A DNA stretch of 64,000 bases, taken from positions 1-64,000 of the IMG/VR virus record IMGVR_UViG_2974549561_000001. One strand, given 5' to 3'. Under the pieces are notes generated by a model. The model saw only the letters and a list, made by a program, of their open reading frames with translations, did not search any database and was not told the origin of the DNA. Below, piece by piece: positions 5,008 through 42,566 of this stretch (the stretch's first letter is position 1; each line of letters opens with the position of its first letter). The stretch is from a virus. Its lineage: Duplodnaviria > Heunggongvirae > Uroviricota > Caudoviricetes. The translations under genes were made by a program, and so were the position numbers.

Positions 5008-5140
5008 CATGCCTCGCTCTTCGGTCCCTTCTTTTACGATCGACACGGGTACTTTGAGGCTGAACTTCCGGCGCTTACGCGTGCTATAGATACTATCGAT
5101 TTCGAACGATTATTCGCTGCTCTTAGCAAATAACACTGAT

Positions 5141-5161
5141 GCCCCTGAACGGGGCTTTTTT
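5141..5161 (+). terminator. rho-independent terminator
   Basis: GCCCC-tgaac-GGGGC hairpin followed by TTTTTT. Confidence 0.6.
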
Positions 5162-5250
5162 GTGCCCTCCTTGTAACTCTCAATCGTGCAAAATGAACCA
5201 AACATGCAGAGAATGCTATGTACAAGCATCTACGCATACATTATTATTTT

Positions 5251-5286
5251 ATGCAGCATTTTTAATTAAATTCAAAAATACAGCAT
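5251..5286. promoter_or_regulatory. imperfect inverted repeat upstream of parA (candidate par promoter/operator)
   Basis: ATGCAGCATTTTT ... AAAAATACAGCAT arms in an AT-rich region 16 bp before parA. Confidence 0.3.
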
Positions 5287-5301
5287 AAAGGATGACTTTC
5301 G

Positions 5302-6498: not shown

Positions 6499-6514
6499 GG
6501 AGTAAGAAACCCCC

Positions 6515-7516: not shown

Positions 7517-7517
7517 A

Positions 7518-7605
7518 CTTTCGCCATTCAAATTTCACTATTAACCTACTGTTTTTAAAGTAAATCCCTCTAAAATTTCAAGGTGAAATCGCCACGATTC
7601 CACCT
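7518..7605. other. parS partition site
   Basis: ATTTCAC heptamer and TCGCCA hexamer boxes flanking an AT-rich IHF-like core, directly after parB. Confidence 0.75.
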
Positions 7606-7663
7606 TGGATTTTACCTTCCTCCCCTACTCCCGAAAAAAATAAAAAAATTGCTTGTCACGAGA

Positions 7664-7690
7664 AAGTCAACAAGTGACTTTCAATAAAAT
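7664..7690 (+). promoter_or_regulatory. candidate late promoter
   Basis: AAGTCAACAAGTGACTTTCAATAAAAT; the ACAAGTGAYTT motif recurs upstream of lyz, R and prt. Confidence 0.35.
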
Positions 7691-7741
7691 CTCTTCCGAA
7701 AAGGGATTCACACAAGTGCCTTGTGTTTAAGGAAGAGTAAA

Positions 7742-9448
7742 TTGAGTAACTTACGCGAATACCAGAATCGTATTGCAGATATCGCAAAACGCTCTAAAGC
7801 TGTGCTTGGCTGGGCAAGCACTGCGCAGTTCGGTACTGATAACCAATTCATTAAAGATGATGCCGCGCGTGCCGCATCTATCCTTGAAGCTGCACGTAAA
7901 GACCCGGTTTTTGCGGGTATCTCTGATAATGCCACCGCTCAAATCGCTACAGCGTGGGCAAGTGCACTGGCTGACTACGCCGCAGCACATAAATCTATGC
8001 CGCGTCCGGAAATTCTGGCCTCCTGCCACCAGACGCTGGAAAACTGCCTGATTGAGTCCACCCGCAATAGCATGGATGCCACTAATAAAGCGATGCTGGA
8101 ATCCGTCGCAGCAGAGATGATGAGCGTTTCTGACGGTGTTATGCGTCTGCCTTTATTCCTCGCGATGATCCTGCCTGTTCAGTTGGGGGCAGCTACCGCT
8201 GATGCGTGTACCTTCATTCCGGTTACGCGTGACCAGTCCGACATCTATGAAGTCTTTAACGTGGCAGGTTCCTCTTTTGGTTCTTATGCTGCTGGTGATG
8301 TTCTGGACATGCAATCCGTCGGTGTGTACAGCCAGTTACGTCGCCGCTATGTGCTGGTGGCAAGCTCCGATGGCACCAGCAAAACCGCAACCTTCAAGAT
8401 GGAAGACTTCGAAGGCCAGAATGTACCAATCCGAAAAGGTCGCACTAACATCTACGTTAACCGTATTAAGTCTGTTGTTGATAACGGTTCCGGCAGCCTA
8501 CTTCACTCGTTTACTAATGCTGCTGGTGAGCAAATCACTGTTACCTGCTCTCTGAACTACAACATTGGTCAGATTGCCCTGTCGTTCTCCAAAGCGCCGG
8601 ATAAAGGCACTGAGATCGCAATTGAGACGGAAATCAATATTGAAGCCGCTCCTGAGCTGATCCCGCTGATCAACCACGAAATGAAGAAATACACCCTGTT
8701 CCCAAGTCAGTTCGTTATCGCGGCTGAGCACACGGTACAGGCGGCGTATGAAGCACAGCGTGAATTTGGTCTGGACCTGGGGTCCCTACAGTTCCGCACC
8801 CTGAAGGAATACCTGTCTCATGAACAGGATATGCTGCGTCTTCGCATCATGATCTGGCGCACTCTTGCGACCGACACCTTTGACATCGCTCTGCCGGTTA
8901 ACCAGTCCTTTGATGTATGGGCAACCATCATTCGTGGCAAATTCCAGACTGTATATCGCGACATTATTGAGCGCGTTAAATCTTCTGGTGCGATGGGGAT
9001 GTTTGCTGGTGCTGATGCAGCATCTTTCTTCAAACAGTTGCCGAAGGATTTCTTCCAGCCAGCCGAAGACTATATCCAGACTCCGTATGTTCACTACATC
9101 GGTACCCTGTTCGGTAACGTGAAAGTGTACGAAGTACCTGCTGGTATTTGTAAGAACTTAACGACAGAGAACATTCAGTTCAGCTCGATGGATGTGCTGT
9201 GCTACGTCCGTGATGAAAATCCGGGTAAAGCAGGCTTCGTGACTGGTGATGCTGTCCCGGCCATCCCGTTCCAGCATCCGACCACTCCGGCGCTGGTCAA
9301 TCGTACCACGCTGTGGGGTTCGGCTATCAATGATATGCACCCACGCAACGGCGCTGATTACTTCACTCGTGTAACGCTGACAATGGCCAAAAAAGGCGGG
9401 CTTAACTTCATTAGCGGCGACACGATTGATGCCGGTGACTCTGAGTAA
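7742..9448 (+). CDS. major head protein precursor (gp23-like), probable TTG start
   Basis: about 570 aa, first gene after parS as in P1; AAGGAAG SD six nt before TTG 7742; function assigned by synteny and size only. Confidence 0.5.
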   Translation: MSNLREYQNRIADIAKRSKAVLGWASTAQFGTDNQFIKDDAARAASILEAARKDPVFAGISDNATAQIATAWASALADYAAAHKSMPRPEILASCHQTLENCLIESTRNSMDATNKAMLESVAAEMMSVSDGVMRLPLFLAMILPVQLGAATADACTFIPVTRDQSDIYEVFNVAGSSFGSYAAGDVLDMQSVGVYSQLRRRYVLVASSDGTSKTATFKMEDFEGQNVPIRKGRTNIYVNRIKSVVDNGSGSLLHSFTNAAGEQITVTCSLNYNIGQIALSFSKAPDKGTEIAIETEINIEAAPELIPLINHEMKKYTLFPSQFVIAAEHTVQAAYEAQREFGLDLGSLQFRTLKEYLSHEQDMLRLRIMIWRTLATDTFDIALPVNQSFDVWATIIRGKFQTVYRDIIERVKSSGAMGMFAGADAASFFKQLPKDFFQPAEDYIQTPYVHYIGTLFGNVKVYEVPAGICKNLTTENIQFSSMDVLCYVRDENPGKAGFVTGDAVPAIPFQHPTTPALVNRTTLWGSAINDMHPRNGADYFTRVTLTMAKKGGLNFISGDTIDAGDSE

Positions 9449-28067: not shown

Positions 28068-28502
28068 ATGTCTGACGTCTCAACAAACCTCTATAAGAGT
28101 CAGTTGTTGGACTATTACTATCAGCGGCGCGCTGAATCGTCCATTAACAAAGGCTCTCGATTTTTAATCAGCAAGGCCGTTTTCGGTACCAGTTCACTGG
28201 TTACTAAGAAAGGAGATGGCACTTATGAGATTGGAGAACTGCCAAAGGCTTTCGATCTGGCAGAACTGACCAGTCAATTTTGCACCATCAACCTCGTCCC
28301 AACCTACTCAGGCGGGATAATTACTGTCCGAATGGACCTTGATCAAAGTCAGTTGCAGGAAGGGAAAAACTACCCATTCAACACTCTGGTTGTTCTGGAT
28401 AACGAGAATAAGCCAATCGCCATTATTTGTGTCCAAGAAGACTCGCTGTATGTGGGCAAAACATATACCGCAGTTATGGCCATAAACACGACAACAGCAT
28501 AA
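28068..28502 (+). CDS. R: tail-fibre-associated protein (R position)
   Basis: 144 aa immediately upstream of S. Confidence 0.5.
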   Translation: MSDVSTNLYKSQLLDYYYQRRAESSINKGSRFLISKAVFGTSSLVTKKGDGTYEIGELPKAFDLAELTSQFCTINLVPTYSGGIITVRMDLDQSQLQEGKNYPFNTLVVLDNENKPIAIICVQEDSLYVGKTYTAVMAINTTTA

Positions 28503-28513
28503 GGATATGCTTG

Positions 28514-30856
28514 ATGAATGACGTTACAGTTGTTACATCAGTTACTTACCCATCACCCGAGTCGTTGGCTCTGGTGGCTGATGTGCAATACCACGAACCA
28601 TATCTGTCAGCCGCGCTAAACCGAAAATTCAGGGGGATTGTTGACCCGGGATTTTATGCCGGTTTCTTACCTAAGCCTGGCGGTGGGATGAACCTGTTAA
28701 TCACCTCAGTGGATGGTGATAAAACCGCAGGCGCGGCGTCGGTGGATATTGGTGAATTCTACCAGGTAACTATTCAGCAACGTAAGGATATTTCTCTTGC
28801 ACTTAGTGCAGGCAAGAAATATGCAATTGTGCTGAAGGGAAGATACCTCCTTGGAGAAGATACCTATCAGGTGAATACCGCGTCACATATTCATGCGGCT
28901 GAATTTGTTGCCAGAACCTATACCGATTCATATCAGTTAGGAGATGGAGAGCTGCTTGTTTGTACGGTGAATATCCCTGCTGGCGTATCAGCCATTACCC
29001 AGGAGATGATTGATACATCCGAGCGTATTAACCGCACGATCGGCATTGATATTTCAGACTCTGTAACCAGTAGCAGAAGTGATGTTGCTGCAAGTTCGCT
29101 GGCAGTTAAAAAAGCCTACGATCTGGCGAAAAGCAAGTATACGGCGCAGGATGCAAGCACAACGCAAAAGGGATTAGTTCAGCTCAGTAGCGAAACTAAC
29201 AGCGACAGCGAAACAATGGCGGCTACCCCTAAAGCCGTTAAGTCTGTAAAAGATCTTGCTGATACCAAAGCGCCAATAGAAAGCCCGAGTCTGACAGGAA
29301 CGCCAAGCGCGCCGACGGCAGCGCAAGGTACAAACAGCACGCAGATAGCAAATACAGCCTTTGTTAAGGCAGCTATAACTGCACTTATCAACGGTGCACC
29401 TGGCACACTGGATACACTTAAAGAAATAGCTGCTGCGATCAATAACGACCCGAATTTCAGCACAACTATCAACAATGCCCTGGCTCTCAAAGCGCCTTTG
29501 GCAAGCCCTGCATTAACGGGTGTCCCTACTGCGCCGACCGCCGCACAGGGCACAAATAATACGCAGATTGCTACGACCGCTTATGTAAGAGCTGCCATAT
29601 CCGCATTGGTTGGTTCATCACCAGAAGCTCTTGATACCCTGAATGAGCTTGCCGCAGCACTTGGCAATGACCCGAACTTTGCGACAACAATGACAAATGC
29701 GCTGGCAGGCAAACAGCCTCTGGATGCAACTTTAACCGCGCTCGCTGGCCTTGCGACTGGTGCAAACAAACTGCCTTATTTCACTGGTAAGGATACGGTA
29801 GCTCAGACTGATTTAACGTCAGTCGGTCGCGATATTCTGGCTAAAACAAGCACACTGGCCGTTATCCAATACCTTGGTTTAGGCGAAACGATAAATCTGG
29901 CTGCGGGCGCAGTCCAGAAAACTGGCGATGAGATGAACGGGAAGTTAACCCTGCCACAGACATCTTCCTTCGGCGTGAATACTAATAACACACTGGGCGG
30001 TAGTTCCATCGCTATCGGTGATAACGATACCGGGCTCAAAGGGAACGGCGACGGTAATCTGGCATTTATGGCTAACAACGTGCTGGCAGGATATTTTAAT
30101 GAAAATGAATTGCAGCACAGTAAAAAGATGCTGACTAAAAATTTTCAGGCTCTTGTTGATAATAACTGGCCGGAGGGGGCGGGGGGATTTTCTGGTCAGT
30201 TAAGCAGTGAAGCACCGTTTAGTGTACCAATGGTTCACCGTCAGAATAATGATAATAATTTTTTCCCGCTCCTGAAAGGAAAGGTCTCACTGGAGTCTGG
30301 CTATCCTGTAGCCGCCTCTTTCGGAATATTAACTAGTGGGAATACTAATTTCCCACAAATTGCAATTCACGCGAAAACAGACTTTGATGTTAACGATAAA
30401 ATATGGGTATTTGATGTTGCAACCGGAGAATTTCGCGCGCCGGGCAGGATTACAGCTACAGAAATTTTATTGAGCGGTAAAAGCCGTGTTGCTCCTGATG
30501 GTAATTTATATGGTGATGTGTGGGGTGGCTGGCTGAATGACTTCCTTAATAACAATTACAACCGCAAAAATACTGCCAGTCTGGGTGATTATGGATGGGT
30601 TCGTGACGAAAGCACCGGGTTTATAATGCAATGGGGGACACTTGGTAGCTCAAACGGAACCTACAATTTCCCGCGAGAGTTTCCGGCATCCTGCTTTGCT
30701 GTATTTGTCACCAACAATAATCAGCAGGGGGGGGCGGTGGATAACGCGTTTGGATATCCGGTGAGTAAAAGCCAGTTTTTTGCCGCTACAAAAGATTCAT
30801 CGAGCAGTAATCATATAAATAACTACCCTGTAGCCTGGTTTGCGATTGGGAGATAA
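28514..30856 (+). CDS. S: tail fibre protein S (constant part plus currently expressed variable part)
   Basis: N-terminal about 450 aa ([14 protein letters not shown]...) matches P1 S as I recall it; C-terminal part after cixL is a different variable domain. Confidence 0.9.
29282..29722 (+). repeat. tandem intragenic repeat in S
   Basis: two about 220-bp units encoding [26 protein letters not shown](F/Y)V and DTLxExAAAxxNDPNF(S/A)TT. Confidence 0.6.
29862..29887. other. cixL crossover site
   Basis: TTATCCAATACC-TT-GGTTTAGGCGAA, gix/cix-like 12-2-12 structure at the constant/variable boundary of S. Confidence 0.55.
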
Positions 30857-30857
30857 A

Positions 30858-31265
30858 ATGAGCGATTATTATTACAGCTTTAAAGAGAAAGGTTTTTTCT
30901 ACAAGCCGGATACCGAATCGGGAGATTGCCCGACTGATCTAATTCCTCTGACTGATGAACACTACCATGAACTTATGCAGGGTCAGGTGGACGGAAAATA
31001 TATTGAGCACAGGAAAGGAGGCCCAGTACTGGTTGAACATCGCGAATATACGCCTGAAGAACTGGTTGCACAGGCTGAATCCAGAAAAGCGGAACTCCTT
31101 GCCGGAGCAGAGTCAGTCATTGCGCCACTGGCACGGGCAGTAAAACTAAAAATTGCCACAGATGAAGAGATTAAACGGCTGGACGCCTGGGAGCTCTACA
31201 GTGTACTGGTAAACCGGGTGGATACCTCAAATCCTGACTGGCCGGATAAGCCAGCCAGCCAGTAG
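30858..31265 (+). CDS. U: tail fibre assembly protein U
   Basis: 135 aa after S, GGGAGA SD; Tfa-like. Confidence 0.65.
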
Positions 31266-31268
31266 TCG

Positions 31269-31856
31269 TTATTGTGGTAATTCAGGCCACCTGATTTCCG
31301 TGAAGGTGGCTGAGTCTTTCACGCCGCTCAAATCCAGCGTTTTAAGCGCCCTGATATACGCCATCCATTTAGTCAGGCTGGCCTTATCGTCGTCACTTAT
31401 TTCACCCAACGCCAGTTCGGTTCGCCAGTCGGCAATGGCGCTGTTAGCGGCATCCAGTAGTTTCTGTCGGGTGGTTTCGGCCTTAGCCTGATAATCCACC
31501 GGAACGGGTAAAACCTTACCATCCCTGTACAACCATGAGCCATCACCACGGCAATCATCAGGACAGTCAGCAGCGTCTATTTCCGCAACAGACATATTAA
31601 CCGGCCACAACATTGATACAGAATATGTGTTGCCACGTTGCGGGACTGGCTTATTAACAACACCCCAGATAACCCCTTCATGGTCGTACATTATTTTTGC
31701 AGTATCATCAGAAAATAATGACTGACACTCATACCAGTCCTGTCCGTCGTCTGACTTCAGAAAATATGCACCTATATTTATTTCGGCCTGAGTTTTCCCC
31801 CTGTTTACAGGCGCGTCAGTCAGTCTGAAATTTTTGATATTCTGATATTTTTTCAT
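31269..31856 (-). CDS. alternative tail fibre assembly protein U'
   Basis: convergent with U inside the invertible segment. Confidence 0.6.
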   Translation of the reverse strand: MKKYQNIKNFRLTDAPVNRGKTQAEINIGAYFLKSDDGQDWYECQSLFSDDTAKIMYDHEGVIWGVVNKPVPQRGNTYSVSMLWPVNMSVAEIDAADCPDDCRGDGSWLYRDGKVLPVPVDYQAKAETTRQKLLDAANSAIADWRTELALGEISDDDKASLTKWMAYIRALKTLDLSGVKDSATFTEIRWPELPQ

Positions 31857-33098
31857 TATACCGTTCCCCCTTGTACGGTATACCACTGATTCCCGACTCG
31901 TTTTTGCAAAGGCGCATAATTAATACCATCAATATTTTCGCCCTGATAATCTTTCCAGACGGAGGTAACTACATATCCGGGAGTGTTAGGCCATGACCCT
32001 GCATTGTTCCAGGTAGTCACTGATGTGCCGGCCCCTAACTGAACATCTAAGACGAGATTATTATTAATCCAGGTACTTAACCAGCCATTTCCCCATAGCG
32101 AACCAAAGATATCACCGTTATTCTGATAGATGGCCCCGCCTGCACGCAGTACGTTAGCGGTGATATCGCCATTGACCGTAAACAGGACTGAACCATCAGG
32201 GTTTCGCTGGCTGTATAACTGCCATCCCTGATCATCATCCAGTTCAATTACAGTGGGCCTGTTTGCGTCGCCCCATAATTTAAACGTGGCTGTCATTGTC
32301 GAATTATTATTACTCGTTAGTGACAGTTTTTTTTCTTTGCCTGCGCGAATAGCTCCCAGAACCATCATTTCACCGGGAGCGACACGAACGGTGTGCTGGT
32401 TGTTCGCGTATGTATCCAGTATCCCGTCACCGTTCTGTTTAAAACCGGTATCGTTATCACCGAGTACAATTGAATTACCGCCCAGTGCATTGTCAGTACC
32501 AATGCTTAACGGACCGTTTAGCTGTCCCCCTGTAATCGGCAATGCACCCACATCACCGGCTGTTGGTTTCATCAGACTACTGTAAATTGTATATGTCTGA
32601 CCGCTGGTTGAGTTTCCCGGCTGTACTGATGAATATTCAGGCGTACTGTGCAACGTGACATTTGCATTACCGGTGTAGTCATATTGCGCAATTAACCAGT
32701 ACGCATACTGGCCGATATTAATATAAATATCGTAGGTGTCGCCTGATGTATTAACCCATGCGACCTCGTTAGCCGCAGCAGGCGAGCGTCTCCACAACGT
32801 GGCAGTTATTCCAACAGGTGAGCCATTACCGGCACGCAATACCAGTTCGCTGATTGCCGCCTGTTCAGGTGAACCAGCGTTAAACCCCGCCCCACCGTAC
32901 AGTTTAATCACCGCTGTTGATGTAGCCTGCGGCATTACAACCGTGGCGATTTTGAACCAGCCTGATTCACCAAGTGTAATGGTAGTCGATGTTACCGCGC
33001 CGATAGTTCTCGCAAATTGTTTTTTGTCCGGAATATCGCCGCCATTCTGCGATTTTTGCAGTGCACCCGCAGCGAGATTTATCGTTTCTCCTAAACCA
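31856..33098 (-). other. silent alternative tail-fibre variable segment Sv'
   Basis: lacks its own N-terminus; encodes ALGGNSIVLGDNDTGFKQNGDGILD... resembling the P1 S C-terminal part; would fuse to Sc after inversion. Confidence 0.7.
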
Positions 33099-33111
33099 AG
33101 GTTTTTGCGAA
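33086..33111. other. cixR crossover site
   Basis: reverse complement TTCGCAAAAACC-TT-GGTTTAGGAGAA. Confidence 0.55.
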
Positions 33112-33175
33112 TTGCCTCCGTGTCGTCTGAACGATATTTTTTCCCGCTTTTAGCAACAATCGCTGGTGATAAAGT

Positions 33176-33757
33176 ATGCAATATGGTTATGCGAGAGTGT
33201 CAACTTTTGACCAAAATTTAGAATTACAACTGGAGGCGCTCAGGAGTTCAGGATGTGACCGGATTTTTGAAGATAAAATATCCGGTGCGAAGTCAAAACG
33301 ACCAGGGCTTGATAAGCTGATAAAAGTGTTGCGGCCTGGCGATACGGTTGTTGTCTGGAAACTGGACCGAATGGGACGTTCTCTGATTCATCTTGTTGAG
33401 TTACTGAACTTTTTTTTATCAAACAACATTGAGTTTATTTCGGTTACAGAAGGGATAAAAATTAGCACATCAATTGGCCGCTTTGCTTACACGATGCTGA
33501 GTGCGGCTGCAGAGCTGGAGCGGGAAAATATTATTGAAAGAACGCGTGCAGGATTGGCTGTGGCAAGGGCTAACGGCAGGATAGGAGGACGCCGTTCAAA
33601 ACTGACACCAGAGCAATGGGAGCAGGCCGGACGTTTATTAGCGCAAGGAGTCCCCCGCAAGCAGGTCGCATTGATCTACGATGTGGCTCTGTCAACTTTG
33701 TATAAAAAACACCCCGCCAAACGAACGTGCATAGAAAGTAACGCTCAAACCAATTGA
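33176..33757 (+). CDS. serine DNA invertase (Hin/Gin/Cin/Pin family)
   Basis: 193 aa; catalytic YARVST N-terminus; C-terminus RLLAQGVPRKQVALIYDVALSTLYKKHPAKR resembles Gin/Pin; 65 bp from cixR. Confidence 0.85.
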   Translation: MQYGYARVSTFDQNLELQLEALRSSGCDRIFEDKISGAKSKRPGLDKLIKVLRPGDTVVVWKLDRMGRSLIHLVELLNFFLSNNIEFISVTEGIKISTSIGRFAYTMLSAAAELERENIIERTRAGLAVARANGRIGGRRSKLTPEQWEQAGRLLAQGVPRKQVALIYDVALSTLYKKHPAKRTCIESNAQTN

Positions 33758-33888
33758 ATCGGTCGGCAACACAGATTGATTGTGCCCCAATAGCCACACT
33801 CAACCCACGATGTTTTTTTCGATAGTGGCGAATTGATGTAAAGGAGGTGAGATGAAATCAATTCGCTGTAAGACCTCATTTTCCAACA

Positions 33889-34113
33889 TCACAACCAAGT
33901 AACGCTGCTGCCCGCAAAATGATCTAACGCCCATACGACCAGGGTGTCACCTCTGGAAAGCATACGCAAAACCTTTTTTAGCCCTGGGCGTTCAGCCTTT
34001 TTGCCGCTCGCCTTGTCCTCAAAAATCAGCTCACATCCTGCGCTTTCAAGGGCATTTCGTTGCAAAGCAGTGTTTTGTTCATTTGTTGATACGCGTACAT
34101 AGCCTATTAGCAT
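33889..34113 (-). pseudogene. cin: truncated cin invertase remnant
   Basis: first about 60 codons (MLIGYVRVSTNEQNTALQRNALESAGCELIFEDKASGKKAERPGLKKVLRMLSRGDTLVVW) match P1 Cin from memory, then diverge to a stop after 74 codons. Confidence 0.7.
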
Positions 34114-34177
34114 ATTTTCTGCTCACTATCGTTATTTATAGCAAGCTGCGGATTTTAATTAACAAAAACCAGTATGT

Positions 34178-34522
34178 ATGGAAATCACAAAGTACATACC
34201 GTTCCCCAATGACGAACAACTCAAAATTGGCAAGGTTTTTATGTCTGACTTAACAATTTTATTTTTATCTATCTTTGGCGGAGTGCATTCGTTTCTGAAT
34301 GGGGTTCGTGAAAAACGTTACGAAGCGTCATGCAGGCAATTGCTGGCCGAGTGTATTGCTGCCGTACTTGCAGGCTTTATTGGCATGTATTTCGCGGAAT
34401 ATAAGGGCATGGATGAAAGCCTTCAGCATTGCGTGACTATTATTTGCAGCATCAATAACAGGCTCATTCTTGAAAAGTCACAAAGGATTATCGATTCGTA
34501 CATCAATAGAAATGCCTCTTAA
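34178..34522 (+). CDS. small membrane protein, holin-like
   Basis: 114 aa with two hydrophobic segments; upstream of lydA. Confidence 0.4.
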   Translation: MEITKYIPFPNDEQLKIGKVFMSDLTILFLSIFGGVHSFLNGVREKRYEASCRQLLAECIAAVLAGFIGMYFAEYKGMDESLQHCVTIICSINNRLILEKSQRIIDSYINRNAS

Positions 34523-34589
34523 GCAACAAATGACCGGTTGAGAAGTTACTTTGCATACCATTACCTCCTGACAACGTAGGAGGGAACTT

Positions 34590-34919
34590 ATGCTTGACAC
34601 ACAGGAATTAGCTCCAGTTGCTATTGCGCTCCTGCTTTCAGTAATTGGTGGGATAGGCACGTTCCTGATGGATGTCCGAGACGGTCGCCAGTCTGGCAAT
34701 TTGTTGGGATTGGTTACGGAGATCTTTGTTGCAGTGACAGCTGGCGCGGTGGCGTACCTATTGGGGCAACACGAGGGCTGGGAGTTATCAATTACGTACT
34801 TAATGGTAACGATAGCCAGCAATAACGGTCATGAGGTGATTTCAGGGATGAAACGAGTGAATATCGATAGCATTCTGAATGTTCTTACAAGTTTGGTGAA
34901 AAAGGGAGGCGGGAAATGA
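34590..34919 (+). CDS. lydA: holin LydA-like
   Basis: 109 aa, TM segments, strong GGAGGGA SD; first gene of lydA-lydB-hdf-darA order. Confidence 0.55.
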   Translation: MLDTQELAPVAIALLLSVIGGIGTFLMDVRDGRQSGNLLGLVTEIFVAVTAGAVAYLLGQHEGWELSITYLMVTIASNNGHEVISGMKRVNIDSILNVLTSLVKKGGGK

Positions 34920-35359
34920 TTGGCTGGGGTGTATGCGTTCTTGCGTTAGCCTTAGCCGATCGCTATTTGCTAAAACGCAAGGACATCACGCATTTAGAAC
35001 TTGGTGATGTGGAAATTAAACCGGGTTTCATCCGGGTGCCGTTCAAATACCGGTCTAAATTCCCGTTTTTGCGCGGCGCAACGGTCAGATATTGGATCCG
35101 CGATGTTCAGAAGCCGACGACAGTGATTGAAGGCGAACAACGTTGTTTGACGTCGGCTGAACAGGGCGAAAACAGTGAATGGTTGTACATACCCACTGAA
35201 TATATGGGTAAAGGAGAGCGACTGTGGCATTTCAACGTCATGGTTACGCATGGCGACTCGTTCATTAACCCGTTGTATCGGATTTTCCCTGTTACTCAGC
35301 AAATCCGCAGAAGTTACGTAATAAATCTCGCACAGGATGTGTCAGATGACGAAAAATAA
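34916..35359 (+). CDS. lydB: LydB-like lysis regulator
   Basis: 147 aa, ATGA overlap with lydA. Confidence 0.5.
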   Translation: MIGWGVCVLALALADRYLLKRKDITHLELGDVEIKPGFIRVPFKYRSKFPFLRGATVRYWIRDVQKPTTVIEGEQRCLTSAEQGENSEWLYIPTEYMGKGERLWHFNVMVTHGDSFINPLYRIFPVTQQIRRSYVINLAQDVSDDEK

Positions 35360-35948
35360 GTATGCAACGGTCGATTTTGACCAGGTTAATGAAAAGGGGC
35401 TGAAATCCCTTATCGCGGCGATCAATAAAACCGGTGTTACGGTAATTGAGGTTGACTCCAGCAACCGCGCAACAACGAAAGATGGCGTTAAAGTTAAAAC
35501 CGCAAAGCTGGTTCTTAACGACGGACAAATTCTTGCCATACAGGTAAACGATACTGGCGATATATCGTCTGTGAGGCTGAATGGAAAAGCTATTCCTAAC
35601 GCTCAGTCGCCGGATATCAAGACGCTTGGTACCGTCATGGGGCAAGCGGCCCGCAAAAACTCCGCAAAATTCCAGAAATCACTGATCGCCAAAGCGAAGC
35701 GTGTTGCCAATCCGGTAGACAAGAAACCGGCAGTTAAATCCAACTTTCAGCGTCTGCAAGAAGCAAAACTGCGGAATGCTCAGGTGGTTGCCGCTTATAA
35801 GTCCGCGCAGAATTCGGTGTCTTTCAATCAACAGCAGATCACTGATTTGCGGGCGAAGCTGGATAAGGAGACAGGCCGACTCAATAACGAAAAGGCCCGA
35901 AATGGCGAACTCAAACGCCGTCTTAAGCAACTGAAAGCAGGAAATTAA
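35346..35948 (+). CDS. hdf: Hdf (DarA-fragment homologue)
   Basis: 200 aa; AKFQKSLIAKAKR block similar to DarA AKFQRAQKKKKAL. Confidence 0.55.
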   Translation: MTKNKYATVDFDQVNEKGLKSLIAAINKTGVTVIEVDSSNRATTKDGVKVKTAKLVLNDGQILAIQVNDTGDISSVRLNGKAIPNAQSPDIKTLGTVMGQAARKNSAKFQKSLIAKAKRVANPVDKKPAVKSNFQRLQEAKLRNAQVVAAYKSAQNSVSFNQQQITDLRAKLDKETGRLNNEKARNGELKRRLKQLKAGN

Positions 35949-35949
35949 C

Positions 35950-37869
35950 ATGGAACAGTTCAATATCAATAAAGGGGTGACGATCAAGCCTGGGCTTGAC
36001 GTGCTTCCCCCGCCAGTGACTGATGATGAATATCGCGCATTAATGGCCGGTGAGGACCGCTATCTGATGACGGAATCCAACACCCTGGAGGAAATCGAGG
36101 CTACGTTCTTCTATGACACGCCGATCCACTGGTGTGCTACGGATTTACTGGAGGCGATTAGTTCTACTCGTTTGCAGTTACACCGGACCATGCAGGCATT
36201 TGTCCGGGCATTGAACCAGAAGCTGAATGGTACCGGAATCTCTGCGGGGAGTGATAAAACGGGGGATGTGGCCCAGAGCGGCGCGCGCGCGATCGGCGGC
36301 GCTGAAATTGGCCGGGCACGTAACGTTAACGGGCTGCCGGTCTTGCCAGCCATTATTCCGCTCAGTGATGGTCAGACTATCAGCATTCTGTTTCATAGCC
36401 CGACAGCGGAAAACCGGATCACCAATAGCGATACGCTGGTTGCTTTCCAGTTCTTACTGAATAAAAAAGACGTTACTCACACCGTTGCTCCGATGAGTGG
36501 ACGTGATATGACGCTGGCGCAGGTCACCATGAAACTTGCCAACCTTGCAGAGAAAAACTCGGCAAAATTCCAGCGTGCGCAGAAGAAGAAAAAAGCCCTT
36601 GTTGATGAAATAACCCAACTACAGGCTGACAGTGACCAGAAAGAGGATGCCATGAGCGACCTCGCGGATCAGGTGGCAGCGGTAGAAGGGCAGAAGGCAG
36701 ATCTGGAGCAGAAAATTAACGCTGTTGCATCGGAAGCGGATTCTCTTTATGAAGAGAATGAGCGTTTGCAGACGGAGATTGATCAGCTCAATCGCACTGG
36801 TGGGCGCGATACCATTGCTCCAGCGGGGATGACTGGTGGGCACTCTCGCGCGCTGACGGATCGCCTTGCCAGTATCAAAAATCGTATGCATATGAACGGG
36901 GAAGTGACGCTCAGTAATGGTGCATCAATGAAGCAATTCATTGAGGACGGCGAAGGGTATATCCAGTTAAGCGATTCGGATGGCAGCGTGTACATGATCA
37001 AGGCTAAATCCATACAGGGTGTGGACATGGCAGATGCGATCGGCAAGCTGTTTAAAGCCTATAAAGCGGGTAATGTATCGGAATACCTGGTCCAACCAGA
37101 AGAACATAAACCGGAAAACGTCGAACCTGAACCAGCGGAGGATACCGGTAGCTCTTCGCCTGAACCAGAAGTCTCTGTAGGTGCATATCGATATGCCCTG
37201 CAAATGCGTCCGGCGGCCCCTGGCGCAATACCTGAAGGTAACAAAGCAATTCTGCCGCGCCCTGATGAAGGTGACCCGTATTATGAATATGCACGCTACG
37301 GCATTGCTACTTACGATACCCCGCTTTCTGATCAGCAAATGAGTGAGTACGACCTGAAGTTATTGCCTCACGAGGATTCTTTCGACTTCCTGGCGAAGAC
37401 ACTTACTAATGGTCCGTTTGGCAAATATGCACAAAAAGCTCTGGAGCTGGCCACCAGCTCACCAGACGAGTTCCGCGTAATGCTGAAAACTCAGTTTCAA
37501 AAAACTTTCCCCAATATTGCGTTTCCGGGGGGCGCTGGCACCGAGAAAATGGTGCAGAGCATGATCAATGCATTGCAGGCCGAAGTCGGTGAGATTACTC
37601 AGCCAGAACCTGCCCCGGCACAGCCTGATGAAACGGTTAGCGAAGCAGATGCAGCGGCTAATAAAGCCATTGAATATCTCAATAACGTGATGGATATGCA
37701 AAGCACTGACATGGCGGAGATCCGTAACGCCCGGGGTAATGTCCGGGAAGCGATTGCAGCCCTTCAGGCTGCCGGGCGTTTTGAGGAAAACGAAGAGCTA
37801 GTTAATGGCGCTGCTCGCCACCTGGCTGATCTGCTGGTAGCAATCCAGAAAGCGGGGGTAGCGGCATGA
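35950..37869 (+). CDS. darA: DarA antirestriction head protein precursor
   Basis: 639 aa, matching P1 DarA length; position in Dar operon. Confidence 0.7.
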   Translation: MEQFNINKGVTIKPGLDVLPPPVTDDEYRALMAGEDRYLMTESNTLEEIEATFFYDTPIHWCATDLLEAISSTRLQLHRTMQAFVRALNQKLNGTGISAGSDKTGDVAQSGARAIGGAEIGRARNVNGLPVLPAIIPLSDGQTISILFHSPTAENRITNSDTLVAFQFLLNKKDVTHTVAPMSGRDMTLAQVTMKLANLAEKNSAKFQRAQKKKKALVDEITQLQADSDQKEDAMSDLADQVAAVEGQKADLEQKINAVASEADSLYEENERLQTEIDQLNRTGGRDTIAPAGMTGGHSRALTDRLASIKNRMHMNGEVTLSNGASMKQFIEDGEGYIQLSDSDGSVYMIKAKSIQGVDMADAIGKLFKAYKAGNVSEYLVQPEEHKPENVEPEPAEDTGSSSPEPEVSVGAYRYALQMRPAAPGAIPEGNKAILPRPDEGDPYYEYARYGIATYDTPLSDQQMSEYDLKLLPHEDSFDFLAKTLTNGPFGKYAQKALELATSSPDEFRVMLKTQFQKTFPNIAFPGGAGTEKMVQSMINALQAEVGEITQPEPAPAQPDETVSEADAAANKAIEYLNNVMDMQSTDMAEIRNARGNVREAIAALQAAGRFEENEELVNGAARHLADLLVAIQKAGVAA

Positions 37870-38231
37870 CACTATCAGCTATTGAGTTAATGGATCTCAG
37901 CGATAAGTTGGATGCTCTGATGTCCAAAGCGGCTACCGCGCGTGGCATGGAGTTGCTGGATATCAGCGATGAAATTGACCAGATCATGCAACAGATGGGG
38001 TACGGTGTGTCCGGCGGCAGTAGTGGCGAGGAAAAACAACCTTCGGTACATGATGGCGTGCCAAAACTGGTTGCTGATTTCCTGGCTGATAAATTCGTCG
38101 ATCAGAGCACCGATGCATTTATCGGTACCTTGCAGGATTTGAGTCAATATGTTGGCACATACATCGACCTGGACCAGGTTAAACAGCACACGGCGGCATG
38201 GATAGCCGCCAACATTAAAGAGGCAGCGTGA
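37866..38231 (+). CDS. ddrA: DdrA
   Basis: 121 aa, ATGA overlap with darA. Confidence 0.55.
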   Translation: MTLSAIELMDLSDKLDALMSKAATARGMELLDISDEIDQIMQQMGYGVSGGSSGEEKQPSVHDGVPKLVADFLADKFVDQSTDAFIGTLQDLSQYVGTYIDLDQVKQHTAAWIAANIKEAA

Positions 38232-39569
38232 CATCCTCCACGCCCTTCGGGGTGTGGATTCCTGCTATGTTCAGGCTGTCGCCTGAATCATTTCGGAGGG
38301 TTCCTGCTTCAACGGGCGGTCTGACTGCACCATCCCTCCACAGGCAAGCACGGCGTGCCCCGCCGCTAAAATGTTACGAGCGCCGTTTACATCGGCGTTC
38401 GCTGTATATCCACAATCCCGACACACGAATTTACTTTGTGACAGGCGGTTTTCTTTCGCTGTATGGCCACAGCACGCGCAACGCTGGCTTGTGTACGCTG
38501 GCGGCACTGCCAGTACCTGACCGCCACGCCAGAGCTGCTTGTACTCAAGCTGGCGGCGCATTTCATACCAGCCCTGATCCAGTATCGAACGGTTTAAACC
38601 TGATTTTGCCCGGACATTGCGCCCCGGCTGACTTATCGTACCCGCCGCTGACTTTGACATGTATTTAACCTTCAAATCCTCAATGACAATCATTGCGTGG
38701 TTTTTGCTGATGATCGTTGTGATTTTATGAAGGTAGTCTCTGCGGATGTTTGCGATACGAAAATGCAGTCGCTGTATTTTGCGTTTCTGCATCTGCCAGT
38801 TGTTGCTGAATCTGACCTTGCGGCTTAACTGTCGCTGAAGTCTCGCCAGCTTCTTCTGGTTTTTCTGAAAACTATTTACAGGTTCAAAGACTGTGCCATC
38901 TGACAGCGTGGCGAGTTTAGCCACGCCAGCATCCAGTCCGACCATTGATGCTGAAGGGTGAACAGGAGTGGATACCTCTCTTTCTGTCTGAATACTGATG
39001 TACCACTTACCGCAGGACTGGCTGACAGTGACATTTTTCACAACACCCGTGACCTGACGGCTATTCCGGTAGCGCATCCAGCCAAGTTTCGGCAGAAAAA
39101 TACGGCTGTATTCCTGATCGAGCTTAACGCCCTGCGGGTAGCGGAATGCATCATTCTGTCCCCGCTTTTTGAATCGGGGAAAAGCAGCCCGATTCTGGAA
39201 GAAGTTTTTGTAAGCCCGCTCAAGGTCTTTCAGTGACTGTTGCAATGGCTGTGAGGGAGAATCTTTAAGCCATTCGGTTTCAGTGTCTTTTTTCCACTCA
39301 ACCAACCAGGAAGCCATTTTCGTGTAAGGGATGTATTTTTTACCGGCCTCATGATTCTCATTCTGAAGCGCCAGAGCACGATTGAAAACGAAACGACATG
39401 CGCCTGCGAAGCGCCTCATTTCACGCTCCTGTTGACCATCTGGTCTTAATCGGAATTTGAATGACACCTGTTGTTTCATGTCACTATTTTAAGCAAAAAT
39501 AGCCGGGAGGAAAACTGTGCCTTATATCCCCACTATGAGGCGCGTGGGGAGCGGCACATTGGATAAGGC
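38232..39569 (-). mobile_element. IS200/IS605-family tnpB-only insertion element
   Basis: single TnpB ORF, no tnpA; subterminal hairpins at both ends; TTAC next to the left end (minus-strand reading); occupies the ddrA-ddrB junction. Confidence 0.7.
38271..39479 (-). CDS. tnpB: TnpB (OrfB) RNA-guided nuclease family
   Basis: 402 aa; N-terminal OrfB_IS605 region and C-terminal zinc finger CACCGH...CRDCG with RuvC-like segment. Confidence 0.85.
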
Positions 39570-39578
39570 GTAACAGGG

Positions 39579-42566
39579 ATGAGCTTAAGCGATCAGGTGG
39601 TTATGGCCACCAGCATAGAAACGCTGATCGAGCTGCTAAAGAACCTGCCCGATTACGGGCGGGTTTCGTATGTGGTGACAGCGAAGGGAGACGAGGTAAA
39701 AACGGCGTTTGATATCGTCGATGCCTCAGCTCTTTTGGTATCCAATACTCTGGATGGGAAAATTAATCCAGACTATCCCCAGGAACTTCAGCCGCGCGAC
39801 CGGACCCGCGCATCCAGCCTTCTTCAGGTCAACCAGATATCCAAGGATTTGCGTCCTGCCCAGCTTACCGATTCCGGTTTATCCAGCCATGGCGCGCCGA
39901 TAATTGGTGAGGACAATGCCGTTGAGTCAGGTAATGGGCGGACCATGGGGATCATCAAAGCCTATCAGGACGGCAATGCGGATCGGTATCGTGAGTACCT
40001 GATTGAACATGCGACCGAATTCGGCATACGACCTGAAAAGGTTGAATCAATGACGGCTCCGGTACTGGTGCGCCGCCGGTTAACTAAGGTTGACCGCGTT
40101 CAGTTTGCCAAGGACTCAAATATTTCTGATCTTCAGGAAATGGCAGCCAGTGAAAAGGCTTTTGTTGATGCCGACAGCATAACACCGGCGATGATGGCGC
40201 TTTTTAACCCGTCAGAAAGCGGAGATCTGCTTAGCCGCAGTAATGACGCGTTTATTCGCGGATTTATGACGCAAGTTGGTGCCACACAGGCGGCTGGCCT
40301 TGTAACTGAAGATGGGCGACCAACACGGCAACTTGTAGACCGTATACAAAACGCGATCTTTGCCAAGGCATATAAGGATGCGCGCCTGGTAAGAATGGTT
40401 GCAGAAGAACCTGATCCGGATATGCGTAATGTTCTGACGGCGCTTAATGCGGCAGCCAATGATTTTGTCCAGATGCAGGCTTTATCAGGAGAAGCGCACA
40501 AGCAGGCTGTGACAACTATTGTTGATGGTATTGAGACAGCGGATAGTCTCGATAAAAAGGCGCTGGCGGCATTGAAAGATGCGGTAGACCTGGTAAGGCA
40601 ATCGAAGGAGTCAGGCCAACATATTACCGATGTTATTGCTCAGGGGGATATGTTCAGCGAAACAGCCCCGGAAGTGAAAGCTCTCGCGTTGTTCATCGTC
40701 GCGAATAACCGTAGCGCGAAGCGTATGGCCACCGCCTTTAAATTGATGGCTCAACGTATCAATGATGAGTTACAGCACCAGGGCCAGGCGCTGGGGGATA
40801 TGTTTGGCGGTGGTGATGTGTCGTTACAGGATATCCTTCGCCAGGTGTCTCAGGAACTGGAAAACGAAGGCATGCAAGGGATATCCGGCGGTCTTTTCGA
40901 GTCCGTTTCCGGCGGTAGTTACAACGGTGTTGCTCCATATACCAGTTTGCTATTACATCGGGCATCCGGCATCAAAGACATTATTCATCTGATCAGGCTG
41001 CTTTCCCGTACAGATCCCCAGGATGAACAGCTTGTACAAGTGCTTGCGCATTTTGTTCGAATGCCTGTTGCCGACGTGAATAAATGGTGCCGATTATTCG
41101 GTATCAGCAATTCGTTACTTCGCGGATTGTTAAATCACGCATCCTCCCTTGGGCGCGACGGCTTTGATGAGATAGCGCAGGCGATAAAAAACGGAGATAT
41201 GCCACCAGCTATTGACTGGTTTTCCATTCGCCCAACCAGGGTGAAAGCATTCCTTAGCGCGGCGCATTCGGCATCACCATTGGCAGAAATGATTCAGAGG
41301 TTGTCGCTCATATTCACAGACCATACCGCGTTGGGTGATCTGACTCTGGACGAGATGAAAGAAGCCTCCATTCAGTGGGCCGATCAACAAAATGAGGTTA
41401 ACTCAGACTTCTTGCCAGCATTCAGGAAGGCCGTTAGTAAAGCGGATGATGCCCGTGGAATTCTGAAGGCATTTAAGGCATTGCAAAGTCGGGTTAATAA
41501 ACATGTCGGTGATATCGATGGGGTAACGGCGGAAGGCAGGGATATCCTTAAAGAGCACGGCATAACGCCAGAGTTTATTGATGAGATCAGGACGGATATG
41601 CAGCGTGAGGTCGTATCGTCCCTGCAAATCGTAGCCAGAGCGTTGGCGGATGCTAATCCGAAGAGTGCGGCCATTGTTAACCGGGTTATTGGTGATATTG
41701 AAGCATCGGAGGGCATGGGGGCGCTGAAACTCTTCCTTTCGCGAGCGTTTAATCCTAACGGCAATATTCTCCCTGGCATTATTGGTGAGGCTAAAAAGTA
41801 TGTCAGTGAAGAAGAACTTGAGCAGCTTGACCAACTACTTAAGCGATTCTCATATAACCCGCAGATACGCTGGCAAATGAATCAGCGAAGTATGGGTTCG
41901 GTCCACGAGAAAGTGTTATCTGCCATGAACAGTGCGATCGCAAACTCATCCGTATCTGAAGAAAAAGCTCTTGAGTGGGCCGACTCTTTTATCACAGAAG
42001 AAGTGGAAGAAGCCCGCGCTGGACAGAATGGTGGGATAGACCTGCGCAAGGAACTTGCTGATATTTATCGCCTGACCGGCGGGAAAATATCGACCTTATC
42101 AAAGGTAGTTCACCACCAGGGAAGGGCATATGCAAATCTTAATGGTGTTGTTGCTGTCAATTTGAACGATGAAAATGCAAGTGCACTGTGGCACGAGCTG
42201 GGTCATCATCTTGAGTACAGTAACCCTGGTTTGTTAGAGAAAGCCCGGTCATTCCTGAAGGCCAATGTTGAAGGGGATAAGCCATCTTTCGTCAATATCG
42301 GTGGGCGTGGCAAGCCTGAATGGTGCTTCAGATCTCGATTGAGTAATATTTATATGGCGAAGGTATACCCGCCAGCCTCAGTAAGTAACACCGGGAAAAT
42401 TCGGCAGAAATCACCGACTATTTCCAAAACGTCAGCAACGGAAGTATTCTCTATGGCTCTTCAGTTGTATCATGACAAAGAGGCCGCTGCCGCATCACTG
42501 ATGAATGGTGACGGATTGCTGGAACTGTTATTAGGTGTGGCAAAGGAGCTAAATAATGCAGATTAA
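39579..42566 (+). CDS. ddrB: DdrB
   Basis: 995 aa following ddrA; assignment by synteny and size. Confidence 0.6.
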   Translation: MSLSDQVVMATSIETLIELLKNLPDYGRVSYVVTAKGDEVKTAFDIVDASALLVSNTLDGKINPDYPQELQPRDRTRASSLLQVNQISKDLRPAQLTDSGLSSHGAPIIGEDNAVESGNGRTMGIIKAYQDGNADRYREYLIEHATEFGIRPEKVESMTAPVLVRRRLTKVDRVQFAKDSNISDLQEMAASEKAFVDADSITPAMMALFNPSESGDLLSRSNDAFIRGFMTQVGATQAAGLVTEDGRPTRQLVDRIQNAIFAKAYKDARLVRMVAEEPDPDMRNVLTALNAAANDFVQMQALSGEAHKQAVTTIVDGIETADSLDKKALAALKDAVDLVRQSKESGQHITDVIAQGDMFSETAPEVKALALFIVANNRSAKRMATAFKLMAQRINDELQHQGQALGDMFGGGDVSLQDILRQVSQELENEGMQGISGGLFESVSGGSYNGVAPYTSLLLHRASGIKDIIHLIRLLSRTDPQDEQLVQVLAHFVRMPVADVNKWCRLFGISNSLLRGLLNHASSLGRDGFDEIAQAIKNGDMPPAIDWFSIRPTRVKAFLSAAHSASPLAEMIQRLSLIFTDHTALGDLTLDEMKEASIQWADQQNEVNSDFLPAFRKAVSKADDARGILKAFKALQSRVNKHVGDIDGVTAEGRDILKEHGITPEFIDEIRTDMQREVVSSLQIVARALADANPKSAAIVNRVIGDIEASEGMGALKLFLSRAFNPNGNILPGIIGEAKKYVSEEELEQLDQLLKRFSYNPQIRWQMNQRSMGSVHEKVLSAMNSAIANSSVSEEKALEWADSFITEEVEEARAGQNGGIDLRKELADIYRLTGGKISTLSKVVHHQGRAYANLNGVVAVNLNDENASALWHELGHHLEYSNPGLLEKARSFLKANVEGDKPSFVNIGGRGKPEWCFRSRLSNIYMAKVYPPASVSNTGKIRQKSPTISKTSATEVFSMALQLYHDKEAAAASLMNGDGLLELLLGVAKELNNAD

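What the first reader, a model, noticed from the sequence alone, without database searches (positions are those of the whole stretch)
33176..34113. Intact Pin/Gin-like invertase next to the C segment plus a truncated cin in opposite orientation
The functional invertase at 33176..33757 has a Gin/Pin-type C-terminus and a divergent N-terminal half. 130 bp beyond it, on the other strand, lie the first about 60 codons of a canonical Cin that then run into a stop. This suggests replacement of the ancestral cin by recombination, possibly at a cix-like site, leaving a 5' remnant. The new invertase may differ in crossover or enhancer specificity.
Basis: partly seen in the sequence, partly recalled or inferred. 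Interest (0 to 1): 0.55.

Follow-up and report, generated by a model that had tools for sequence, protein, structure and literature searches.

The report
Swapped tail-fibre invertase beside dead cin
A P1-like phage-plasmid has swapped its own tail-fibre "flip switch" enzyme (Cin) for a foreign Mu-style invertase, leaving a dead stub of the old gene; this is real and tidy, but it is ordinary phage mosaicism with a precedent in plasmid p15B.

Summary
At 33176-33757 (+) there is an intact 193-aa Din-family serine invertase. At 34113-33889 (-), 131 bp away, is a 74-codon ORF whose first 61 residues are identical to P1 Cin.

A 785-bp module has replaced the outer half of cixL and cin nt 235-561. 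It comprises an outer half of a crossover site, a leader, the invertase, and a Mu gin-com intergenic remnant with the first 7 com codons. Its left junction lies in the 26-bp crossover site. Its right junction (33874-33881) is illegitimate and has no cix-like site.

The invertase has the position and orientation of Mu gin and e14 pin, a Gin-type DNA-binding domain, and a divergent catalytic domain shared with Citrobacter prophages and ~48-kb phage-plasmids. A 99.8%-identical Salmonella plasmid carries the 3.2-kb segment inverted exactly at the predicted sites, so the switch works.

Both proteins are exact matches to adjacent proteins of Salmonella phage SJ46. Of 80 P1-like loci, 19 have a Min/Pin-like invertase plus a cin stub (the p15B arrangement), and the stubs have at least five different endpoints.

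Verdict: a new member of a known kind; low-to-moderate interest.

The parts
29862..29887 (.). Left 26-bp crossover (dix) site. It reads TTCGCCTAAACC AA GGTATTGGATAA on the minus strand, with the core at 29874-29875. Its outer half is identical to the P1 cixR outer half.
   Evidence: Site table in PMC3241671. P1 homology from the S gene ends here (window 29887 = P1 locus 1426).
29876..33097 (.). Invertible 3.2-kb segment. It carries Sv and U (+; S ORF to 30856, U 30840-31265) and U' and Sv' (-; 31269-31886 and 31856-33097). Both Sv and Sv' join Sc in frame at codon CTT of the LGLGET motif.
   Evidence: (Caudo_TAP in U and U'). Found inverted in plasmid CP031191.
33086..33111 (+). Right 26-bp crossover site, TTCTCCTAAACC AA GGTTTTTGCGAA, with the core at 33098-33099. 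The outer half belongs to the imported module.
   Evidence: score 16 of 17, the top score in the window. In L001, L089 and L004 the same outer half is joined to the P1 cix inner half TTCTCTTAAACC.
33112..33175 (+). 64-bp leader of the invertase gene. A weak sigma-70-like pair is seen by eye (TTGCCT, 17 nt, TATTTT at 33112-33140).
   Evidence: Read from the sequence. It falls below the threshold of the promoter scan. Inference only.
33176..33757 (+). Intact Din-family serine DNA invertase, 193 aa. Identical to Salmonella phage SJ46 AMR59954.1 / WP_001749380.1.
   Evidence: Under purifying selection against the E. marmotae copy: 9 synonymous and 2 non-synonymous differing codons.
33197..33260 (+). 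Candidate recombinational enhancer inside the invertase gene. Fis-like 15-mers lie at gene nt 22-36 (GTGTCAACTTTTGAC) and nt 71-85 (GTTCAGGATGTGACC).
   Evidence: The positions match the annotated cin enhancer, nt 19-90. Sequence-level evidence only.
33758..33873 (+). Remnant of the Mu gin-com intergenic region, including the com ribosome-binding site, its ATG (33852) and its first 7 codons. The upstream GATC motifs of Mu are mutated here.
   Evidence: Window 33516-33871 is 82% identical to Mu 4933-5288 of locus L005.
33874..33881 (.). Right junction of the imported module, an illegitimate join of com' to cin nt ~234.
   Evidence: No dix-like site and no clear microhomology.
33882..34113 (-). 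psi-cin, covering cin nt 1 to ~234. The ORF is 34113-33889 (74 aa). Codons 1-61 are intact. The tail has 10 substitutions and a 1-bp deletion, including R65H and R68G.
   Evidence: Identical to SJ46 AMR59955.1.
34024..34095 (-). Relic cin recombinational enhancer (cin nt 19-90), 68 of 72 nt identical to the enhancer annotated in P1.
34152..34235 (-). Retained cin promoter region, equivalent to the predicted P1cin and P2cin. It overlaps the start of lydC (+).
   Evidence: Near-identity to P1. Promoter coordinates are taken from the P1 record. Activity was not tested.

Best explanation
The window is an SJ46-type P1-like phage-plasmid. Its tail-fibre host-range switch is driven by an imported Din-family invertase rather than by Cin.

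A 785-bp module (window about 33100-33881) replaced the outer half of cixL and cin nt 235-561. The module consists of the outer half of a dix site, a 64-bp leader, the invertase gene with its internal Fis-type enhancer, and a Mu-type gin-com spacer with 7 codons of com. Its layout is that of Mu gin: the gene starts about 65 bp outside the segment and points away from it.

The most likely origin has two steps, both inferred. First, an invertase-mediated exchange at the 2-bp core between cixL and a gix-like site of a Mu-tail-type element. Second, an illegitimate deletion or join that fused com' to the middle of cin.

The invertase binds the two inverted 26-bp sites (29862-29887 and 33086-33111, AA core). 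With Fis bound to the enhancer in its own 5' coding region (inferred), it inverts the 3.2-kb segment. This fuses the constant part of S to either Sv with U or Sv' with U'.

The 5' cin stub is a pseudogene. It keeps its promoter, start codon and relic enhancer but lacks the rest of the catalytic domain, helix E and the DNA-binding domain.
For: Domain content and conserved catalytic residues.

Sites: two dix-consensus sites in inverted orientation are the only two in the 64 kb, and they fit the published Din site table.

Inversion in nature: in plasmid CP031191 (99.8% identical), window 29868-33105 is inverted with collinear flanks. One IMG/VR contig (L054) breaks at 33090, inside the right site.

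Reading frame: both Sv and Sv' are in frame with Sc across the core.

Left junction at the core: P1 homology in S ends at cixR. L001 and L089 carry a P1-type C segment joined at the site to the new outer half-site and invertase.

Right junction: Mu gin 3' end, intergenic region and com codons 1-7 are fused to cin nt ~234.

Selection: the invertase shows dN/dS of about 0.07 against the E. marmotae copy.

Stub: 61 of 61 residues match Cin, followed by a decayed tail with a frameshift.

Precedent: 19 of 80 P1-like loci have a Min/Pin-like invertase (+) with p15B mix sites plus a cin stub (-) cut at nt 177. The P1 GenBank record notes two cin-5'-like regions in p15B.
Against: No experiment here shows that this protein, rather than a chromosomal Din invertase of the host, performed the inversion seen between plasmids. 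Din invertases are known to cross-complement.

Fis dependence and enhancer function rest on sequence similarity alone.

The two-step origin is an inference. Homologous exchange within the shared AAACCAAGGTTT stretch cannot be distinguished from true site-specific exchange.

No donor was found that carries exactly this invertase followed by intact com and mom.
Confidence: 0.85

Rival explanations
1. The cin stub is retained because it still works. Its intact enhancer (two Fis sites) could serve as a second enhancer for the new invertase. Alternatively its promoter could drive antisense transcription into the 3' end of the convergent invertase gene and so set the switching rate.
For: The enhancer is 68 of 72 nt identical to P1's, and Fis-like site 2 is unchanged in all 7 stub lineages examined. 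The cin promoter region is almost identical to P1's. No terminator-like site was found on the minus strand between the stub and the invertase. All six or seven stub endpoints within cin fall in its first 240 of 561 nt.
Against: Stubs with a perfectly kept enhancer region also occur in loci with no invertase within 7 kb, such as L013, L051 and L081. Seventeen loci lack cin and lydC altogether, and two stubs stop at nt 48-52, inside the enhancer. In the window-versus-E. marmotae comparison, the 5' part of the stub has about 4 times the synonymous divergence of the adjacent invertase. It therefore has a different history, best explained by repeated homologous replacement from intact cin alleles entering from the lydC side. 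The new gene carries its own enhancer-like elements.
Confidence: 0.1
2. There was a single ancient truncation of cin, already present in the common ancestor of the p15B type and the SJ46 type. Invertase cassettes to its left were then swapped later.
For: Both types share the order segment, invertase (+), about 125-160 bp of spacer, stub (-), lydC.
Against: The endpoints differ: nt 177 with a stop at codon 9 in the Min type, against nt ~234 with 61 intact codons here. The sequences beyond the endpoints are unrelated. Other endpoints (48-52, 139, 212-217, 236) show that truncation recurred.
Confidence: 0.08
3. The arrangement is an assembly or annotation artefact caused by mis-joining across an invertible repeat.
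For: Short-read assemblies often break at these sites; many IMG/VR contigs end there.
Against: The identical junctions occur in at least 9 complete circular plasmids from Salmonella, E. coli, E. fergusonii and E. marmotae, and on tens to hundreds of independent contigs.
Confidence: 0.01

Closest known systems
Min inversion system of plasmid p15B (min plus a truncated cin next to lydC)
   Same: Both are P1-like backbones. In both, a non-Cin Din invertase sits just outside the invertible tail-fibre region and points away from it. About 125-160 bp further on, a 5' cin stub lies on the other strand next to the lyd genes. This was seen in 19 of 80 loci that carry p15B-type mix sites, and it agrees with the p15B coordinates given in the P1 record. 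From memory, and not verifiable here, Sandmeier, Iida and Arber (J Bacteriol 1992) described this truncated cin.
   Different: The invertase here is only about 57% identical to the Min-like protein. There is one simple segment with 2 sites rather than a multi-site shufflon. The stub ends at nt ~234 with 61 intact codons, rather than nt 177 with an early stop. The spacer is Mu gin-com DNA. This was therefore an independent replacement event.
Gin / G-segment system of phage Mu
   Same: The layout is the same: S, U, U', S', crossover site, about 55-65 bp, then a 193-aa invertase pointing away from the segment, followed by com. The DNA-binding domain is nearly identical. Fis-like elements lie at the same gene positions.
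   Different: The catalytic domain is only 53% identical to Gin's. The site core is AA as in cix, not GA as in gix. com is cut after 7 codons and mom is absent. The host backbone is P1-like rather than Mu.
Cin / C-segment system of phage P1 and P7
   Same: The backbone is the same, as are the constant part of S, the cixR outer half-site and the AA core. The promoter, start codon, first 61 codons and enhancer of cin are still present.
   Different: cin is truncated and frameshifted. The working invertase is a different gene in the opposite orientation on the segment side. In this window the segment itself carries fibre genes related to those of Salmonella phages ST64B and Fels-2 rather than the P1/Mu type.
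Invertases of ~48-kb enterobacterial phage-plasmids and Citrobacter prophages (possibly the PinB lineage of Shigella)
   Same: They share the distinctive catalytic domain (MQYGYARVSTFDQNLELQLEAL ... GRFAYTMLSAAAE), at 80-88% identity.
   Different: Those proteins are 183-188 aa with Pin- or Cin-like C-termini. The window protein has a Gin-type C-terminal domain and tail. The link to PinB rests on memory and on one hit named after Shigella boydii; it was not verified.

Membership tests
Din family of serine DNA invertases (Hin/Gin/Cin/Pin/Min) | An N-terminal resolvase-type catalytic domain with the serine nucleophile and conserved Arg/Asp residues, plus a C-terminal HTH_7 DNA-binding domain, in about 185-195 aa | tested here: met
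   Pfam Resolvase 7.8e-44 and HTH_7 4.4e-15; 193 aa. R7, S9, D64, R65 and R68 are invariant in the alignment. The best solved-structure match is Gin, E = 1.3e-71.
Din family of serine DNA invertases (Hin/Gin/Cin/Pin/Min) | Two 26-bp recombination sites (12 + 2 + 12, dix consensus) in inverted orientation with identical 2-bp cores, flanking the segment | tested here: met
   Sites at 29862-29887 and 33086-33111, both with an AA core. They score 15 and 16 of 17, against a next-best of 12 in the 64 kb. They agree with the site table in PMC3241671.
Din family of serine DNA invertases (Hin/Gin/Cin/Pin/Min) | The segment actually inverts at those sites | tested here: met
   Plasmid CP031191, 99.8% identical, has window 29868-33105 in reverse orientation with collinear flanks. 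Which invertase catalysed the inversion was not tested.
Din family of serine DNA invertases (Hin/Gin/Cin/Pin/Min) | A Fis-dependent recombinational enhancer in the 5' part of the invertase gene | tested here: inconclusive
   Fis-like 15-mers lie at gene nt 22-36 and 71-85, the same positions as in cin, gin and pin. However, only 45 of 72 nt match the cin enhancer. Fis binding and enhancer dependence cannot be tested with these tools.
P1/P7 Cin (the stub at 34113-33889) | A full-length 186-aa ORF with catalytic domain, helix E and DNA-binding domain, ending at cixL | tested here: not met
   Only cin nt 1 to ~234 are present. There are 61 intact codons, then substitutions at R65 and R68, a 1-bp deletion and a stop. 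It is a 5' fragment of cin, not a Cin protein.
p15B Min | A Min/Pin-type invertase (>80% identical to Pin) acting on multiple mix sites (TTCCCCYAAACC AA CGTTTT...) | tested here: not met
   The invertase is 57% identical to the Min-like protein of L008 and 61% to Pin. There are only two sites, and they are not of mix type.

The most novel reading that the evidence does not exclude
The cin stub may not be inert. Its promoter and relic Fis enhancer could have been co-opted to tune the imported switch, either as a second enhancer or through convergent antisense transcription into the invertase gene. That would explain why independent replacements in P1-like plasmids keep leaving the first 140-240 nt of cin.
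Probability: 0.1. Interest if true: 0.5.

Novelty: new member of a known kind. Interest (0 to 1): 0.25.

Why it matters
The region lydC-cin-Sv'-U'-U-S is a recognised hot spot of variation in P1-like phage-plasmids (PMC9603915, PMC6906374). These elements are of practical concern because they carry ESBL and mcr genes.

This case shows at base-pair resolution how the switch is rebuilt. Segments are exchanged at the crossover core, and the invertase gene comes as its own small module, here taken from a Mu-type gin-com unit.

It also corrects annotation. 'cin' in SJ46-type elements is not Cin, and the neighbouring 74-aa 'recombinase family protein' is a pseudogene.

It does not reveal a new mechanism.

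Tried and rejected
- **Original p15B and PinB papers.** I tried to read Sandmeier et al. 1992, Lobocka et al. 2004 and Tominaga et al. 1991. None is held. The p15B record X62121 is not in the collections. A search for 'pseudo-cin' found nothing relevant. The p15B precedent therefore rests on three things: the P1 GenBank notes, the mix-site table and my survey of p15B-type loci.
- **A cix-like site at the right junction (33700-33960).** None was found.
- **A promoter for the invertase and a terminator between the convergent genes.** The consensus scan gave nothing above shuffle expectation.
- **Known RNA families in 32500-40500.** None was found.
- **An NCBIfam equivalog for the invertase.** None reached its cut-off.
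- **Selection on the relic enhancer as the reason stubs are kept.** I considered this and rejected it as the main explanation. See the rival explanation for the counter-evidence.
- **A dominant-negative risk from longer cin fragments that retain helix E, as the reason endpoints cluster before nt 240.** This is plausible but untested.

Full report
**What the window is**

The region around the finding has the gene order of phage P1. The ORFs are S (28427-30856, +), U (30840-31265, +), U' (31269-31886, -) and Sv' (31856-33181, -). They are followed by an invertase (33176-33757, +), a short resolvase-like ORF (34113-33889, -), and then lydC, lydA, lydB, hdf and darA. From 33882 rightwards the DNA is 96% identical to P1. 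The 193-aa invertase and the 74-aa ORF are exact matches to two adjacent proteins of Salmonella phage SJ46, AMR59954.1 and AMR59955.1. The element is therefore an SJ46-type P1-like phage-plasmid.

**Check of the observation**

The 193-aa protein has a complete resolvase catalytic domain and an HTH_7 domain. All conserved catalytic residues are present.
- It is about 60% identical overall to Gin, Cin and Pin.
- Residues 1-135 are 53-58% identical to them.
- The C-terminal domain is 78% identical to Gin, and residues 148-187 are almost identical.

The 74-aa ORF matches P1 Cin at all of its first 61 residues. It then has 13 aberrant codons and a stop. The gap between the two ORFs is 131 bp. Every descriptive element of the finding is correct.

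**Anatomy of the switch**

Two 26-bp sites fit the Din consensus.
- 29862-29887 reads TTCGCCTAAACC AA GGTATTGGATAA on the minus strand.
- 33086-33111 reads TTCTCCTAAACC AA GGTTTTTGCGAA.

They are inverted relative to each other and share the AA core of cix. They are by far the best matches to the consensus in the 64 kb (site table from PMC3241671). In both S and Sv' the core falls in codon CTT of a conserved LGLGET motif, so either variable part joins the constant part of S in frame.

The invertase gene starts 64 bp outside the right site and points away from the segment. This is the layout of Mu gin and e14 pin. P1 cin is the exception: it points toward the segment and ends at cixL. Inside the new gene, Fis-like 15-mers lie at nt 22-36 and 71-85. 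These are the positions of the enhancer annotated in cin, nt 19-90.

**Evidence that the switch works**

A Salmonella Indiana plasmid, CP031191, is 99.8% identical to the window. It carries window 29868-33105 in reverse orientation, with both flanks collinear. One IMG/VR contig (L054) begins at 33090, inside the right site, which is the usual mark of mixed orientations in a sample. The invertase gene differs from its copy in an E. marmotae plasmid by 9 synonymous and 2 non-synonymous codons, giving dN/dS of about 0.07.

These data show inversion at the predicted sites and selection on the gene. They do not prove that this protein, rather than a host Din invertase, is the catalyst.

**What was replaced, and where the junctions are**

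On the left, P1 homology in S runs to the crossover site and stops there. Window 28462-29887 matches P1 locus 1-1426 at 95% identity, and the outer half-site is identical to that of cixR.

The E. coli and E. fergusonii plasmids L089 and L001 are the most informative relatives. They have a P1-type C segment (87-89% identical to P1) that runs up to the cix inner half-site TTCTCTTAAACC. This is joined at the core to the new outer half-site GGTTTTTGCGAA, the same invertase, the same spacer and the same stub.

Relative to P1, the imported DNA is therefore only about 785 bp (window about 33100-33881). It displaced the outer half of cixL and cin nt 235-561.

On the right, window 33516-33871 is 82% identical to Mu. 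The match covers the last 240 nt of gin, the gin-com intergenic region, the com ribosome-binding site and the first seven com codons. The sequence then switches within 33874-33881 to antisense cin at nt ~234. No dix-like site exists there.

My inference is a site-specific exchange at the core on the left and an illegitimate join on the right. A cointegrate followed by a deletion is one possible route.

**The invertase is itself a mosaic**

Its catalytic domain belongs to a distinct clade, marked by the motifs MQYGYARVSTFDQNLELQLEAL and GRFAYTMLSAAAE. This clade is found at 80-88% identity in ~48-kb enterobacterial phage-plasmids, Citrobacter prophages and Shigella. Those proteins carry Pin- or Cin-like C-termini, whereas this one has a Gin-type DNA-binding domain and tail.

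**The stub**
- cin nt 1-183 differ from P1 at 11 positions, all synonymous.
- nt 184-234 carry 10 substitutions and a 1-bp deletion, including changes at the catalytic R65 and R68 codons.
- The promoter region and the 72-nt enhancer are retained; the enhancer is 68 of 72 nt identical to P1's.
- The fragment lacks most of the catalytic domain, helix E and the DNA-binding domain, so it cannot be a recombinase.

**How common is this?**

I anchored 80 P1-like loci from IMG/VR on lydA and classified them.

| Class | Loci |
|---|---|
| Intact cin | 32 |
| Min/Pin-like invertase (+) with p15B-type mix sites, plus a cin stub (-) cut at nt 177 | 19 |
| Window type (stub ending at nt 234) | 1 |
| Stub but no invertase within 7 kb (endpoints nt 48-52, 139, 212-217, 236) | 8 |
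| Neither cin nor lydC | 17 |
| Cut by contig ends | 3 |

The P1 GenBank record itself notes two cin-5'-like regions in p15B. One lies just after the last mix site. The other, 89% identical, covers the cin start and promoter next to lydC. 'Foreign invertase plus dead cin stub' is therefore a recurrent state with a precedent in p15B.

The window type differs from the p15B type in three respects: the invertase, the stub endpoint and the spacer. It is therefore an independent event. It is also older than it looks. An E. marmotae plasmid with unrelated lysis genes shares the same junction, with 1.9% divergence in the invertase.

**Published context**

Published surveys list lydC-cin-Sv'-U'-U-S as a hypervariable region of P1-like phage-plasmids. 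They mention truncated or reversed 'cin-related' genes (PMC9603915; PMC6906374). The SJ46 paper simply lists 'cin' (PMC5241659). I found no description of this particular module in the held library.

**Is the stub kept for a reason?**

Several stub lineages show a gradient. There is almost no change in nt 19-90 and heavy decay further 3'. Three observations argue against selection on the relic enhancer.
- The same gradient appears in loci with no invertase nearby.
- Two stubs end inside the enhancer, and 17 loci lack the region altogether.
- Between the window and the E. marmotae copy, the 5' part of the stub has about four times the synonymous divergence of the adjacent invertase.

The simplest reading is that homologous recombination with intact cin alleles keeps overwriting the part of the stub nearest the conserved lydC flank. 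A regulatory role, either as a second enhancer or through antisense transcription from the retained cin promoter, is not excluded. I give it about 10%.

**Verdict**

The system is an ordinary Din-family tail-fibre switch assembled by modular exchange. It is a new member of a known kind and of low-to-moderate interest.

Noticed in passing
window 38271-39479 (-): A 402-aa TnpB / IS605 OrfB-type protein (Pfam OrfB_IS605, Cas12f1-like TNB, HTH_OrfB_IS605) is inserted between ddrA and ddrB. P1 has no gene at this position, but the SJ46-type plasmids L088 and L006 do.
   Followed up: partly
window 31000-33100: The U'/Sv' half of the invertible segment is 89-93% identical to tail-fibre and assembly genes of Salmonella phages ST64B, 118970_sal3 and Fels-2, not to P1 or Mu. 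E. coli and E. fergusonii plasmids with the same invertase module carry a P1/Mu-type segment instead. The fibre cargo therefore appears to track the host genus.
   Followed up: partly
window 33852-33902 (+): The com remnant forms a 16-codon ORF (MKSIRCKTSFSNITTK) with a strong Shine-Dalgarno sequence (AAGGAGGTGAG). It reads into the antisense strand of the cin stub. The GATC motifs that lie upstream of com in Mu are mutated here.
   Followed up: no
window 33476-33535 (invertase residues about 101-119): The helix E region reads GRFAYTMLSAAAELERENI where Gin, Cin and Pin have GRFFFHVMGALAEMERELI. From memory, enhancer-independent mutants of Gin and Hin map at positions 106/107 and 114. The whole clade shares most of these changes, but L114 is specific to the window protein (relatives keep M). 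Whether the clade depends less on Fis is unknown.
   Followed up: no
L006 (Salmonella plasmid pTB502, CP034821) 5539-9090: In this plasmid the invertase, cin stub and lyd-dar block of this phage-plasmid type lie inside a 146-kb IncHI1B mobilizable plasmid. The block is cut on the left by IS26 within Sv', so the switch is broken there.
   Followed up: no
IMG/VR loci L013, L022, L051, L081, L026, L078, L087: These P1-like loci have a cin stub but no invertase within 7 kb upstream. A further 17 loci lack both cin and lydC. What replaced the switch in these loci was not examined.
   Followed up: no
L090 (phage P7) 2739-2755, equivalent to window about 34118-34134: The P7 record annotates a C1 repressor operator, Op(lydC), immediately upstream of the cin start codon. 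The window is P1-like rather than P7-like in this stretch. Control of lydC could still constrain how far deletions into cin can extend.
   Followed up: no
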